From positions 1-55,048 of the IMG/VR virus record IMGVR_UViG_2541047910_000003: 55,048 nucleotides of DNA; one strand, written 5' to 3'. Positions 27,001-30,000 of the stretch are shown here, piece by piece; the first letter of the stretch is position 1, and every line of letters begins with the position of its first letter. The stretch comes from a virus. Its lineage: Duplodnaviria > Heunggongvirae > Uroviricota > Caudoviricetes. Position numbers: made by a program.

Positions 27001-30000
27001 CCCGATGAATTCAACACCTCCTTGGGCGTAGCTAAAAGATTGACTGGAAGTTGGTCTATATAATCAGCATTAACCGCACTTTTCCCTAATCCCTTCATTA
27101 GTGGTAGTTGTTGTATTGCCATTGGAATCAACCTTTATATGAACCCAGTTAGCATCACGCTTTAGCCTACTTGCCCAGGTCTTAGATATCCCGTACTTAG
27201 CCGCAATTACTGACAAGCTTTCTTTTGATGACTTGATTGCAAGAACATCGTCATCACTCAACTTGTGTTTTGGGTGCTTGGTTCCGAAAAACTTGATTGG
27301 TTTCTTTAATCCTGTGGCGTATGCATGTTTGATGTTTTCGCTTTGAGTGCACCACTCAAGATTATTGACGTTATTATTGAGTGGATTGCCATCAATATGA
27401 TTTACCTGAGGCTTGTTTTCAGGATTTGGCAGGAATGTCATTGCAACGATTCGATGGGCAAAAGTCCATTTTGCTCCGATATTATAAAGCACCCTTCCCT
27501 GATTTATTTTAGGCTTTAACCAGCGCCCCTTTCTGAGTTGCGTGCTGCCATGCGCAGCCTTAACAACACGTGAGTGAGAATACACCCTGCCATCTTCTGT
27601 TACGGCATAAACACCTTCAAATCCAGGTATATCTTTAGCATTCTCAGAAAGCATATCTACTCCTTAAAGTTTCGATTTTTCATGTACTTATTATATCAAA
27701 ATTGCCAACATATTCACTGGCAGATAGTCGATATAGTCGGCGTTTCTAAAGTCTTTGCCGACACCTTTCATAAGCGGAAGTTGCTGAATAGGCATTTATT
27801 CACCTATGCGTTTGGGATATCGCCATCAATCAGAGGGAGATCGCCTGGATAATATCGGTCAGATGTGAACACGTCATATTTATTACCCTGCCCTACAGGA
27901 AAATCTCCACGTCGTCGCATTGAAGGAACAACCAGAGTGTCGGTCATCAAGGCATCATATGAGCGTTGGGCGTTACTGAGAACTTGCGGAGTTGGTTCAA
28001 GGCTGTAATCAGATAGCATTCTCAGCAATAACTGATAGCCTACTGCGTGTTTGTATTTTCTTGGAAGACCTGACTCATCATCTGGTAATGGCTGCTCATC
28101 TCCAGTTGCGAAAGCGTAACCAATGTCGCCGGGGTTAATCATCCACTCGGACATCATATCTTCCAGATCATTTACACCATCTTCAATTGATTGCGGCTCA
28201 ACATCAGTAAGCGATGCATTAGAAGCAATAGCAAACTTACGAAGCGCAAAAAGGACGATCTCACCCTTTGTCAGTACTGTTGCCATTGTCCGCCGCCTTA
28301 CGACCTCGCTTACTGGTCGGTTTCAATTCATCAACTGAGGCAACAAAGCCCAACCTTTCGAAAAACTGGAAGTCTTTTTCTGCGATAACGGCCTGTACAT
28401 GCCCGGATTCGTTATCTGCGGCAAGGAATACACTCATGCGATCCATATTGTTTCCTTAAAACATAAAAGGGGCGGAAGCCCCTTGTTATTACGGATTACC
28501 GAAGAACTGACCGCCCATGTGAGGGTTAAAGCACACATATGCAGGCAGTAAGTCAAAGCGCATTTTTTGCACGTTGGCATCGCCATCTGCGTATTTATGT
28601 ACGCGGATGGAGAAACCTTCATATGTTGCAACAGCAGAATCAATACTGTGCAGTTTCGGCAGTGGGATAGAGCCAAGTCCACAGAAGAACTTGTTATAGA
28701 ACAGGTTTGGCTTCATTGTCTGGCTAGCAGTGCCTACTACAGATACGGCATCGCCTGCCGCTACCTGACGACTTACAGAGTTGTACTGCGGGTTTGTAGT
28801 GTCATAAATCGGAACACCAGAAAGCGTAACCGTCACATCGCCACTGCTGTCTGAATTAGCATCAGCAGTAACCGTTGCAGTGAAGCTAATTGGTGTGGCT
28901 CCGTTATACAACGCCTGTTTGGTCTGCTGTTGCAGCCAGTAGGTATTGGTGAATTTAACCTGATCACCAGCTTTCAGAAAACCTGTAACGCTGGCTGTCG
29001 CTCCGGTCAATGTTACAGTGAACTGGTATGAGTCTTTAACTGCGTTATAGGTAACAGTTGGCTGTGTTTTGACTGTCAGTGTTCCGCCAAATGCCCCCTG
29101 CGTACGAGAGGCAAGCCCATTAGACATCAGTGCGCGAATGCCGCCAAAATTGGTTGGGATCTGTGCATTCTCCCATGCAGTACGAACCAATTGATCTGAA
29201 GCGTGCAAACCAGTCTGCGCATCAGCAAGTCGCTGTGCAGACCATGGATCCATTACAGCATAGTTTTCACCTTCATTAACGCCGAGGTCTTTCAGGAAAG
29301 ATGCCGTCTGCGCAACATCAGACCATTTGGTGATTGGAGTATTGGGGCTACCAAGTGACAACGCACCGTTATTCATCATGAAGTGAGCAAGCTCTGTTTC
29401 AAGGTCGGTAACGATTCGCTGGCGAACCGGCGCGAGAATTTCCTCCAGTTGGTTAAGCTTGATCGCTTCCTCCAGTTGCTGATATTCAACAGCAACAGTG
29501 ATGTAGTTACCTACACGCCCCGTAGCTTTACCTGATATCAGGTTGTTTTTATTTTTCCCTGAAATATCACCAGTGGGAGTACGGAGGGATGAGAATTGAT
29601 GCGGACGTTTAAAGCTAACGCTATCGCCAGTGCTGGAGTTGATTTCACCTGCCAGCAACTGACGGTCTACGGTTTTCGCCAGAACTAAATCTGACATAAA
29701 ACCCGGAAGGAATTTTTTCAGAACGATTTGACTGACGTTACTATCGAGATTGTTAGGCATTTATCTTTTCCTTATTCGATTTTTGCGCCGGGGCATAATT
29801 TGTTGAATTCGTCTTGTTTCGCATCAGCACCGCCACCACGTACTTCCGGCTCTGGCTTGATGGCTTTCTTTGGTTTTGGAGCAAGGCTTACCTGTTTGCT
29901 AATCTGCCCCAAGAGGAATGCTGCGCGAATTGGATCTGTCTCAGCGGCTACACGCTGGCGTAATTGCTGGCTCTTACCTAAGCCATAGGCGAGTAGTTCA

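What the first reader, a model, noticed from the sequence alone, without database searches (positions are those of the whole stretch)
27070..27795. Homing-endonuclease cassette split gene 10: orphan 34-codon 5' fragment upstream, full gene 10 regenerated downstream with a divergent 5' end
Directly after gene 4 there is an ATG-initiated fragment MPIQQLPLMKGVGKDFRNADYIDYLPVNMLA that matches the P22 gp10 N-terminus and then hits a stop. An HNH endonuclease gene with its own RBS follows, and its 3' end overlaps a full-length gene 10 whose first about 85 codons diverge (MAIQQLPLMKGLGKSAVNADYIDQLPVNLLATPKEV...) before becoming near-identical to P22 gp10. This looks like a homing event captured in sequence, with the endonuclease cassette bringing a donor-derived 5' segment of its target gene (a co-conversion tract).
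Basis: seen in the sequence. Interest (0 to 1): 0.6.

Follow-up and report, generated by a model that had tools for sequence, protein, structure and literature searches.

The report
Homing endonuclease carrying replacement gene start
A selfish nuclease gene sits inside an essential head-completion gene of a P22-like prophage and carries its own differently spelled copy of that gene's first 40 codons, so the gene still works; the same compact cassette has recently spread into many related phages.

Summary
On the minus strand, gene 4 (27804-28286) is followed by a 34-codon stub (27691-27795). Its first 94 nt are the native 5' end of gene 10 (90/94 to HK620/Sf6). Next come an I-HmuI-like NUMOD4+HNH gene (27070-27654) and a full gene 10 (ATG 27122 to 25704), overlapped by 53 nt. 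Only nt 1-120 of the rebuilt gene 10 are foreign (62% identity), not about 85 codons; identity then jumps to 94%.

This is not a one-off event. The same cassette, with an identical junction, occurs in 27 IMG/VR contigs, 18 of 5,426 complete E. coli genomes and Salmonella phage UPF_BP1. Diversity inside it is about 0.006, against 0.05-0.35 in the flanks. Flanking polymorphisms are unlinked from it within 5 nt on the left and 36 nt on the right. UPF_BP1 is 100% P22 exactly up to the junction.

HNH relatives of 69-83% identity occupy the same site in other P22-like lineages, each with a locally matching stub and its own replacement block. HNH dN/dS is 0.04-0.07.

Best reading: a family of free-standing homing endonuclease cassettes that insert within gene 10 and carry a presumably cleavage-resistant 5' rescue segment. 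Nuclease activity and target site are inferred, not shown.

The parts
27804..28286 (-). Gene 4 (head-tail adaptor, P22_Tail-4). This is the upstream neighbour and is not part of the cassette.
   Evidence: Pfam PF11650, E = 3e-74. Endonuclease-positive loci carry four different gene 4 allele groups sharing less than 90% nt identity.
27702..27795 (-). Orphan native 5' end of gene 10 (nt 1-94), with the native ribosome-binding site just upstream. The ORF runs on to tandem TAA stops at 27691 (34 codons). It is the recipient's own DNA to the left of the insertion point and the presumed left homology arm.
   Evidence: 90/94 identity to HK620/Sf6 and 93/94 to the endonuclease-free locus L145. Its polymorphic sites and allele frequencies mirror those of endonuclease-free 5' ends up to nt 88; only nt 93 is fixed. 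RefSeq already annotates it as a partial pseudogene.
27701..27702 (-). Left junction (...GGCAA|TTTTGATATAATAAG), the insertion point after gene 10 nt 94.
   Evidence: Identical in all 29 loci inspected. UPF_BP1 is 100.000% identical to P22 over 2,382 nt, ending exactly here.
27690..27698 (-). TGATATAAT, a perfect extended -10 motif and candidate promoter for the endonuclease gene. It also supplies the tandem stops of the stub.
   Evidence: Found. TGnTATAAT sits at the same place in all five diverged cassette lineages even though the neighbouring bases differ. It is absent from the paralogue between genes 10 and 26. Function is untested; there is no good -35, and the tool's promoter scan did not call it.
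27655..27689 (-). Conserved leader of the endonuclease gene (AATCGAAAC ... AAGGAG at 27660-27665).
   Evidence: AATCGAAAC is invariant in five lineages. The leader is shared at 87% nt identity with the paralogue between genes 10 and 26.
27070..27654 (-). Free-standing I-HmuI-like HNH homing endonuclease gene (194 aa): NUMOD4 beta domain, HNH catalytic motif, C-terminal three-helix domain. Residues 177-194 are a non-conserved tail read through the start of gene 10.
   Evidence: Pfam NUMOD4 and HNH_3. phrog_59, E = 4e-53, over residues 1-176. PDB 1U3E (I-HmuI) by sequence, E = 1e-8, and by fold, E = 7e-7 over the full length. N85, H86, N98 and N107 are invariant in 42 homologues. dN/dS is 0.04-0.07 between cassette lineages.
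27003..27122 (-). Replacement (recoded) 5' end of gene 10, nt 1-120, carried by the cassette. Its ribosome-binding site (AAGG) lies inside the HNH ORF.
   Evidence: 62% nt identity to HK620, Sf6, P22 and phiSG1 alike. Thirty of 40 codons differ, 22 of them synonymously. GC3 is 0.35, against 0.55 for the native block. Diversity is 0.003-0.01. No endonuclease-free phage carries it.
25704..27002 (-). Body of gene 10 (nt 121-1419), native HK620/Sf6-type sequence.
   Evidence: 94% identity to HK620/Sf6. Divergence between endonuclease-positive and endonuclease-negative loci equals the diversity within each group from the first 60-nt window onward.

Best explanation
The feature is a compact mobile cassette of about 700 bp (window about 27703 to 27003, minus strand), built around a free-standing I-HmuI-like HNH homing endonuclease.

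Inferred mechanism:

1. The enzyme recognises the conserved 5' region of gene 10, an essential head-completion gene, in related phages that lack the cassette. It cuts or nicks near nt 90-120.
2. The break is repaired from a cassette-bearing genome. The recipient's own nt 1-94 pair with the donor's stub on the left, and the gene 10 body pairs on the right.
3. Repair copies in the stop codons, a probable promoter, the endonuclease gene and a foreign, differently spelled copy of gene 10 nt 1-120.

The result is an orphan 34-codon stub, the endonuclease gene, and a complete chimeric gene 10 that restarts from an ATG inside the 3' end of the endonuclease ORF. The target is then destroyed twice over: the stub is truncated at the insertion point and the new copy is recoded. 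That should make the carrier immune, while the essential gene stays intact without an intron or intein.

Shown here: the anatomy, the sharp boundaries, recent spread into many genetic backgrounds, the existence of a diverged cassette family, and purifying selection on the nuclease. Inferred: that the enzyme is active, that its site lies at the insertion point, that the recoded block resists cleavage, and that spread is nuclease-driven.
For: Anatomy and boundaries. The divergent block spans nt 1-120 with 46 mismatches; the remaining 1,299 nt hold 73.

One invariant junction in 29 loci.

Recent spread. Among 26 distinct carrier loci, diversity is 0.000-0.012 inside the cassette, 0.04-0.08 in the stub, 0.03-0.10 in most of the gene 10 body and 0.21-0.37 in gene 4. 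The cassette is combined with 4 gene 4 allele groups and 11 gene 26 allele groups.

Breakpoints at the edges. Carrier and non-carrier gene 10 diverge by 0.37-0.40 in nt 1-120, but from nt 121 on their divergence equals the within-group diversity. Allele frequencies at flanking polymorphisms match between carriers and non-carriers as close as nt 88 on the left and nt 156 on the right.

Salmonella phage UPF_BP1 is 100% P22 for 2,382 nt, ending exactly at stub nt 94. After that it is only 81% identical to P22, while its cassette is 99% identical to the window's.

A cassette family:
- HNH relatives of 83, 82, 72 and 69% identity all lie between genes 4 and 10 of other P22-like phages.
- Each has a stub truncated near codon 30-31 (near codon 26 in L283) and a rebuilt gene 10.
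- In the 69% lineage, endonuclease-free relatives match its stub at 86-89 of 90 positions. They differ from its replacement block at about 40 of the first 93 nt, and then not at all until nt 138.

Selection and fold. dN/dS is 0.04-0.07 with dS above 1. The protein has an I-HmuI-like fold and conserved HNH residues.

The allele is compatible with viability, because UPF_BP1 is an isolated phage.

In P22-type phages, gene 4 overlaps gene 10 by 41 nt, so the retained stub also preserves the end of gene 4.
Against: No biochemical or genetic evidence exists for cleavage, for the position of the target site, or for resistance of the recoded block.

- Prevalence is low: 18 of 915 E. coli genomes that carry gene 10. 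A very efficient drive might be expected to be commoner.
- P22-like phages recombine heavily anyway, so passive recombination could contribute to the shuffling of flanks.
- Residue 85 is Asn where I-HmuI has Asp74 (alignment). From memory, Asp74 binds the catalytic metal in I-HmuI.
- Some endonuclease-free alleles of the second lineage already carry TTA at codon 30, like the replacement blocks, so the immunity determinants cannot be read from sequence.
- No donor lineage was found in which the block is continuous with its own gene 10 body.
Confidence: 0.75

Rival explanations
1. Passive passenger. The cassette arose once by illegitimate recombination and has since been shuffled among P22-like phages only by the general homologous recombination that makes these genomes mosaic. 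The nuclease plays no part; it may be kept for another benefit or may simply not have decayed yet.
For: P22-like late operons are highly mosaic; gene 4 and gene 26 fall into many allele groups. Prevalence is only about 2%. Occasional decay occurs: a frameshift in strain ES5 and an N-terminally truncated 140-aa form.
Against: Random breakpoints would leave sites within tens of bases in linkage with a young insertion. Instead, association is already lost at 5 nt on the left and 36 nt on the right, as expected if exchanges start at the insertion point. In the window's cassette and in the 69% lineage, the stubs are near-identical to contemporary local endonuclease-free alleles (94/94, 93/94, 89/90). 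That implies repeated re-creation in new recipients over a period in which the nucleases diverged to 69% identity. Strong purifying selection acts on the nuclease.
Confidence: 0.13
2. Fossil of a single old homing or insertion event, inherited vertically, with an inactive endonuclease. The stub and the divergent 5' end would be historical scars only.
For: The junction is identical everywhere, which is compatible with a single origin.
Against: Cassette diversity is about ten-fold lower than in the flanks, and the cassette sits in many unrelated flank combinations, including a 100% P22 left flank in a Salmonella phage. The stub shows no indels or stops in 29 copies. dN/dS is 0.04-0.07.
Confidence: 0.05
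3. Prophage weapon first, drive second. The cassette's own constitutive promoter expresses the nuclease in lysogens, so that it mainly serves to cut gene 10 of superinfecting related phages (exclusion). Transfer of the cassette would be a by-product.
For: A perfect extended -10 (TGnTATAAT) is conserved about 30 nt upstream of the endonuclease ATG in five diverged lineages. It is absent from the paralogue between genes 10 and 26. A published precedent exists for a phage endonuclease acting in competition between viruses (PMC11620839, abstract seen).
Against: The promoter is untested and lacks a -35; the motif's count in the window is no higher than chance. The architecture with a stub and a rescue block is what homing produces, and exclusion alone would not need it.
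Confidence: 0.05
4. Artefact or self-splicing element: an assembly duplication, or a group I intron or intein that restores a single gene 10 product.
For: I-HmuI itself is intron-encoded (established knowledge; reference listed in PMC2988022).
Against: The two 5' copies are only 65% identical, and the arrangement recurs in complete genomes and in an isolated phage. There is no Rfam hit at E up to 1 on either strand of 26500-28400. Only 47 nt of non-coding sequence are available. The stub ends in tandem stops, so there is no in-frame fusion.
Confidence: 0.02

Closest known systems
I-HmuI / I-HmuII (HNH endonucleases of Bacillus phages SPO1 and SP82, PDB 1U3E)
   Same: Same protein architecture: an N-terminal beta DNA-binding domain (NUMOD4), an HNH motif and a C-terminal helical domain. 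I-HmuI is the only significant PDB match by sequence (E = 1e-8) and by fold (E = 7e-7, full length). Both target an essential phage gene.
   Different: I-HmuI is encoded inside a self-splicing group I intron. Here there is no intron, and gene function is kept by a carried replacement 5' end. Sequence identity is only about 24%. Whether this enzyme nicks or makes a double-strand break is unknown.
Free-standing homing endonucleases of T4-like phages (SegF, SegG, MobE; 'intronless homing')
   Same: A stand-alone endonuclease gene with its own translation signals, next to or within essential genes. It spreads by break repair together with flanking DNA, and the carrier is protected by sequence differences at the target (review PMC2988022).
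   Different: Those genes sit between genes and rely on natural polymorphism of the neighbouring gene. This cassette sits inside the coding sequence, duplicates the gene's 5' end and brings a dedicated divergent copy. Flank co-conversion here appears very short.
Endonuclease insertions that split phage genes (mobE in Aeromonas phage Aeh1 nrdA; seg-like gene in phage 25 gene 43; mobA with the gene 60 bypass in T4)
   Same: An endonuclease gene lands inside an essential coding region and the phage still makes a working product (PMC2988022).
   Different: In those cases the two gene pieces are both used ('genes in pieces') or are joined by translational bypass. Here the upstream piece is discarded and a complete gene is rebuilt from a spare 5' end.
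Fungal mitochondrial mobile elements carrying a duplicated end of the host gene (Tremella fuciformis 'introns with N-terminal duplication', PMC7315562)
   Same: A mobile element with an endonuclease brings a foreign homologue of part of the host gene. This gives a duplicated fragment and partial foreign gene replacement.
   Different: That case is in eukaryotic organelles, is linked to introns, uses LAGLIDADG or GIY-YIG enzymes, and has heterogeneous outcomes. Here the unit is a tight 700-bp phage cassette with an HNH enzyme, a fixed geometry and population-level evidence of spread.
Engineered 'home-and-rescue' gene drives (HomeR, PMC7968924)
   Same: The same logic: a nuclease drive inserted in an essential gene carries a rescue version of the disrupted part, so faulty repair products are lost. 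The abstract seen covers the essential-gene targeting and the loss of disrupting resistant alleles; that the rescue copy is recoded and cleavage-resistant is from my own knowledge of the design.
   Different: HomeR is synthetic, uses Cas9 and works in Drosophila. This is a natural protein-guided system in phages, and the resistance of its recoded block is inferred, not tested.
Nuclease genes at recombination boundaries in ICP1 and other phages (PMC10448857)
   Same: An endonuclease gene lies exactly at a boundary of genetic exchange. UPF_BP1 switches from 100% to 81% identity with P22 at the junction.
   Different: That study describes intergenic endonuclease islands that bracket essential genes. 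I found no mention in it of a carried replacement gene end.

Membership tests
HNH homing endonucleases of the I-HmuI type (Pfam HNH_3 + NUMOD4) | HNH_3 catalytic domain scoring above the Pfam gathering threshold | tested here: met
   PF13392, 40.6 bits against a cut-off of 24.8, residues 65-107.
HNH homing endonucleases of the I-HmuI type (Pfam HNH_3 + NUMOD4) | N-terminal NUMOD4 DNA-binding module | tested here: met
   PF07463, 35.4 bits against a cut-off of 23.4, residues 7-53.
HNH homing endonucleases of the I-HmuI type (Pfam HNH_3 + NUMOD4) | Overall elongated three-part fold like PDB 1U3E, including a C-terminal helical DNA-binding domain | tested here: met
   AlphaFold model with pLDDT 86 and helices at 134-165. 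Foldseek finds 1u3e_M as the only hit with E below 0.001 (E = 7e-7, 197 aligned columns, TM 0.47-0.51). The Pfam HTH_23 hit on the C-terminal part is below threshold.
HNH homing endonucleases of the I-HmuI type (Pfam HNH_3 + NUMOD4) | Catalytic His and metal-binding Asn of the beta-beta-alpha-metal motif conserved | tested here: inconclusive
   H86 and N107 align with I-HmuI His75 and Asn96 and are invariant in 42 homologues. The residue before the His is Asn85, where I-HmuI has Asp74. The roles assigned to these residues come from memory of the I-HmuI structure paper.
HNH homing endonucleases of the I-HmuI type (Pfam HNH_3 + NUMOD4) | Site-specific nicking or cleavage of the allele that lacks the endonuclease gene | not testable with these tools
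   This needs enzyme assays.
Free-standing homing endonuclease gene (mobile by homing) | Presence/absence polymorphism at one precise site among otherwise homologous genomes | tested here: met
   The junction is identical in 29 carriers. HK620, Sf6 and about 60 IMG/VR loci have an uninterrupted gene 10.
Free-standing homing endonuclease gene (mobile by homing) | Element history incongruent with flank history (horizontal spread) | tested here: met
   Cassette diversity is about 0.006 against 0.05-0.35 in the flanks. The cassette occurs with 4 gene 4 and 11 gene 26 allele groups. It is 99% identical between E. coli prophages and a Salmonella phage whose left flank is 100% P22.
Free-standing homing endonuclease gene (mobile by homing) | Carrier allele lacks an intact target site (immunity) | tested here: inconclusive
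   The stub is truncated at the insertion point. The rebuilt copy differs at 8 of 26 positions across the presumed site. The true recognition site is unknown.
Free-standing homing endonuclease gene (mobile by homing) | Biased (super-Mendelian) transmission that depends on the nuclease | not testable with these tools
   This needs phage crosses.
Group I intron-encoded endonuclease | Self-splicing intron RNA around the endonuclease ORF | tested here: not met
   No Rfam match at E up to 1 in 26500-28400 on either strand. Only 47 nt are non-coding, and the ORF overlaps gene 10.
Intein-associated endonuclease | In-frame fusion with the host protein | tested here: not met
   The stub ends in TAA TAA. 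The endonuclease has its own Shine-Dalgarno and ATG and is in a different frame from gene 10.

The most novel reading that the evidence does not exclude
This is a natural 'home-and-rescue' gene drive family in temperate phages. The replacement 5' block would be an evolved rescue and immunity module rather than a passive scrap of donor flank. It co-diverges with its nuclease, and it is what lets the element live inside an essential gene, even where genes 4 and 10 overlap. The conserved extended -10 would let the nuclease be made from the repressed prophage. A carrier lysogen would then cut the gene 10 of incoming related phages, both excluding them and converting survivors into carriers.
Probability: 0.25. 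Interest if true: 0.8.

Novelty: new variant of a known kind. Interest (0 to 1): 0.62.

Why it matters
Homing endonuclease genes are usually thought to persist either between genes or hidden in introns and inteins. This cassette shows a third solution in phages: insert inside an essential gene and bring a spare, differently spelled gene end. That is the design later invented for synthetic home-and-rescue drives.

The host systems (P22 in Salmonella; Sf6 and HK620 in Shigella and E. coli) are among the most tractable in phage genetics. The target site, immunity, drive strength and any role in prophage-mediated exclusion can therefore be tested directly.

It also explains, at base-pair resolution, a mosaic boundary in a sequenced Salmonella phage (UPF_BP1). 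For annotators, it flags the 34-codon partial gene 10 and the shortened gp10 calls as products of this element.

Tried and rejected
- Group I intron or other structured RNA: no Rfam match at E up to 1.
- Assembly duplication: the two copies are only 65% identical, and the arrangement is present in complete genomes and an isolated phage.
- Search for a donor lineage with the same 5' block but no endonuclease gene:
  - tblastn of the 66 N-terminal residues against 50,697 phage records gave nothing closer than 86%, apart from UPF_BP1.
  - An exact 26-mer scan of IMG/VR gave 27 hits, all carrying the endonuclease gene.
  - An exact 33-mer of the junction found nothing in GTDB species representatives, and the nearest HNH relative there is 49% identical.
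- Test for the same flanking duplication around 37 more distant HNH relatives (35-61% identity): none found. The feature is therefore specific to the family at the gene 4/gene 10 site.
- Promoter and terminator scan: the sigma-70 scan did not call the extended -10. A terminator-like hairpin lies at the stub end, but the count is within chance.
- Reading the immunity determinant from sequence: the TTA at codon 30 shared by all replacement blocks also occurs in some endonuclease-free alleles, so this was dropped.
- Literature: eight full-text searches and seven papers read in part (eight fetched) gave no description of this cassette. Casjens & Grose 2016 was not available, so a passing mention there cannot be excluded.
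Full report
**1. What is in the sequence**

All features lie on the minus strand.

- Gene 4 (27804-28286; Pfam P22_Tail-4, E = 3e-74) is followed after 8 nt by an ATG-initiated 34-codon ORF (27691-27795). This ORF uses the normal gene 10 ribosome-binding site.
- After tandem TAA stops and a 36-nt leader with an AAGGAG Shine-Dalgarno comes a 194-codon ORF (27070-27654). It carries NUMOD4 and HNH_3 domains, both above the Pfam gathering scores.
- Fifty-three nt before that ORF ends, an ATG at 27122 opens a full-length gene 10 (472 aa; Phage_stabilise, 469 of 469 profile positions, E = 4.6e-296).

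**2. Exact boundaries**

I aligned the region with the closest endonuclease-free phages, HK620 and Sf6.

- The stub is the native gene 10 5' end through nt 94 (90/94 identity).
- The rebuilt gene differs from HK620 at 46 of its first 120 nt (62% identity). Thirty of 40 codons differ, 22 of them synonymously.
- From nt 121 on it is 94% identical (73 mismatches in 1,299 nt).

The foreign block is thus 40 codons, not about 85. The larger figure arises when P22 gp10 is the reference, because ordinary E. coli-type versus Salmonella-type substitutions at residues 50-69 are added.

The block is about equally distant (61-63%) from HK620, Sf6, P22 and the Sodalis phage phiSG1. Its third-position GC is 0.35, close to the nuclease gene's 0.395 and unlike the native block (0.55) or the gene 10 body (0.54). 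Block and nuclease therefore appear to share an origin in a more AT-rich, unsampled lineage.

**3. The arrangement is widespread**

- A cassette 99% identical to this one is in Salmonella phage UPF_BP1.
- It is in 18 of 5,426 complete E. coli genomes. Of those genomes, 915 carry this type of gene 10, so about 2% of them are carriers. Three STEC strains carry two copies each.
- It is in 27 IMG/VR contigs.
- All 29 loci that I inspected have the same junction...GGCAA|TTTTGATATAATAAG.
- RefSeq already annotates the stub as a partial 'packaged DNA stabilization protein' pseudogene. UPF_BP1's gp10 is annotated 36 codons short.

**4. Evidence that the cassette moves as a unit**

*Diversity.* Among 26 distinct carrier sequences, nucleotide diversity takes these values:

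| Region | Diversity |
|---|---|
| Gene 4 | 0.21-0.37 |
| Stub | 0.04-0.08 |
| Cassette (27694 to 26975) | 0.000-0.012 |
| Gene 10 body | 0.03-0.10, rising above 0.1 toward its 3' end |

*Backgrounds.* The cassette is found with four gene 4 allele groups and eleven gene 26 allele groups.

*Carriers versus non-carriers.* I compared 23 distinct carrier gene 10 sequences with 62 distinct non-carrier sequences. Divergence between the groups is 0.37-0.40 over nt 1-120. From the first 60-nt window after nt 120 it equals the within-group diversity.

*Linkage at single sites.* Allele frequencies agree between carriers and non-carriers at stub sites nt 6, 48 and, less closely, nt 88, and at body sites nt 156, 171, 177 and 206. 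Only nt 93 is fixed with the cassette. Linkage is therefore lost within 5 nt on the left and 36 nt on the right. This is what exchanges initiated at the insertion point would produce. It is hard to obtain from randomly placed crossovers around a young insertion.

*A concrete case.* UPF_BP1 is 100.000% identical to P22 for 2,382 nt, ending exactly at stub nt 94. After the cassette it is only 81% identical to P22 for 4.5 kb, and it is 94% identical to the window through gene 10. Its stub is 94/94 P22, whereas the window's stub is E. coli-type.

**5. A family of such cassettes**

A protein search found HNH relatives of 83, 82, 72 and 69% identity. Every one lies between gene 4 and gene 10 of a different P22-like phage. 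Each has a gene 10 stub truncated near codon 30-31 (near codon 26 in one lineage), the endonuclease gene, and a rebuilt gene 10 whose start is overlapped by 47-53 nt.

For the 69% lineage I recovered endonuclease-free relatives. Their 5' ends match that lineage's stub at 86-89 of 90 positions. They differ from its replacement block at about 40 of the first 93 nt, and then show no difference until nt 138. In that lineage the block ends exactly at the insertion point.

Between lineages the nuclease has dN/dS of 0.04-0.07 with dS above 1, so it has been kept functional. The stubs, by contrast, stay near-identical to present-day local alleles, which implies they are repeatedly re-created in new recipients. 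More distant HNH relatives (35-61% identity, 37 loci) show no such flanking duplication.

**6. The enzyme**

- The only solved relative is I-HmuI (1U3E): E = 1e-8 by sequence over residues 7-116.
- A model built on 42 homologues (pLDDT 86) matches 1U3E alone at E = 7e-7 over the full length.
- N85, H86, N98 and N107 are invariant.
- Residues 177-194 are low-confidence, lie outside the phrog_59 match, and are simply the reading of the gene 10 start in another frame.
- I-HmuI is a nicking enzyme (established knowledge; Landthaler et al. 2004, listed in PMC2988022). Whether this enzyme nicks or cuts both strands is unknown.

**7. Mechanism proposed**

The enzyme attacks the conserved gene 10 5' region of non-carriers. 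Positions 64-74 and 82-87 are invariant in the 71 non-carriers, and the few variable sites between them are at low frequency. The break is repaired from a carrier, with the recipient's nt 1-94 pairing to the donor stub and the gene body pairing on the right.

Because gene 10 is essential for head completion (established knowledge of P22 assembly), imprecise repair is lethal. Only conversion or faithful repair yields progeny. The carrier has no intact site: the stub is cut off at the insertion point, and the rebuilt copy differs at 8 of 26 positions there.

In P22-type phages, gene 4 overlaps gene 10 by 41 nt. A simple intergenic insertion is therefore impossible there. Keeping the stub preserves the end of gene 4 while the cassette supplies a new gene 10 start.

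All steps involving cleavage, site position and immunity are inference.

**8. A possible promoter**

TGATATAAT (27698-27690), a perfect extended -10, follows the junction directly. TGnTATAAT is present at the same place in all five diverged lineages despite different neighbouring bases. It is absent from the related endonuclease gene found between genes 10 and 26 in other prophages. There is no good -35, and the motif count in the window is at chance level, so this rests on conservation only. If it is active in lysogens, the nuclease could act on superinfecting phages.

**9. Alternatives**

- An intron or intein is excluded (stops and separate frames).
- An assembly artefact is excluded.
- A vertically inherited fossil conflicts with sections 4 and 5.
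- Purely passive recombination cannot be ruled out without experiments, but it fits the edge-focused loss of linkage and the fresh stubs poorly.

**10. Relation to what is known**

The enzyme is a member of the I-HmuI-type HNH family by domain and fold; activity is untested.

The element works like the free-standing endonucleases of T4-like phages. It differs in being intragenic and in carrying a dedicated replacement gene end. The split-gene cases (Aeh1 nrdA, phage 25 gene 43, T4 gene 60 with mobA; PMC2988022) keep both gene pieces instead.

The nearest architectural parallels are fungal mitochondrial elements with duplicated host-gene ends (PMC7315562) and, by logic, synthetic home-and-rescue drives (PMC7968924). 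An endonuclease gene sitting on a recombination boundary matches the pattern described for ICP1 (PMC10448857).

I found no description of this cassette in the searchable literature. One relevant review could not be read.

**11. Verdict**

This is a real and well-delimited feature. I rate it a new variant of a known kind, with moderately high interest because it is directly testable in classic phage systems.

Noticed in passing
L004 2524-3069 (E. coli SCU-124); L033-L044; L052-L056: Other P22-like prophages carry paralogous NUMOD4/HNH genes between gene 10 and gene 26 (55% and 43% aa identity to the window's enzyme). The SCU-124 paralogue shares the leader and the first ~47 residues almost exactly with the window enzyme (87% nt) and then diverges, which looks like an N-terminal module swap. 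There is no flanking duplication and no TGnTATAAT at that site. Gene 10 is thus flanked by endonuclease insertion sites at both ends.
   Followed up: partly
window 27690-27698 (- strand): A perfect extended -10 motif, TGATATAAT, lies right after the junction. It is conserved as TGnTATAAT in five diverged cassette lineages and is a candidate promoter of the cassette. The sigma-70 scan did not call it because there is no -35.
   Followed up: partly
window 27703-27722 (- strand): The end of the stub is an imperfect palindrome (TGCCAGTGAATATGTTGGCA). With the inserted ATTTTGATAT it scores as a terminator-like hairpin. The palindrome is part of the native target and ends exactly at the insertion point. 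The number of such sites in the region is within chance.
   Followed up: no
window 52430-53680; 37348-37503; 1-14000: The window is a P22-like prophage. An integrase-sized ORF lies next to tRNA-Thr(CGT), the likely attachment site. Two tRNA genes (Thr-TGT, Asn-GTT) lie inside the phage. The first ~14 kb form a low-GC block (36-41%) compared with ~48% in the virion genes.
   Followed up: no
L087 (Salmonella phage SEN22, NC_028696) ~1490-1500: Gene 10 of SEN22 has an extra T near codon 16 (GACTTTCAAG versus GACTTCAAG in P22). This shifts the frame and moves the annotated start downstream. It is either a sequencing error in a T run or a real lesion.
   Followed up: no
L001 2283-3593 (UPF_BP1, NC_047875): gp10 of UPF_BP1 is annotated 36 codons short. 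The true start, inside the 3' end of the HNH ORF, was evidently avoided by the annotators.
   Followed up: yes
L174 1047-1630 (E. coli ES5); protein P0005: Decayed copies of the endonuclease exist. In ES5 a 1-nt deletion splits the ORF in two. A 140-aa N-terminally truncated form occurs in 11 member sequences. The stub and the rebuilt gene 10 remain intact in ES5.
   Followed up: partly
L173 and NZ_CP091020.1 ~1597213 (E. coli STEC308; also STEC306 and STEC307): These strains carry two different P22-like prophages in one chromosome, and both hold the cassette.
   Followed up: partly
L283 3560-5353: One cassette-bearing lineage, closest to Proteus phages at 72-73% nt identity, has a 597-aa gp10, 125 residues longer than usual.
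   Followed up: no
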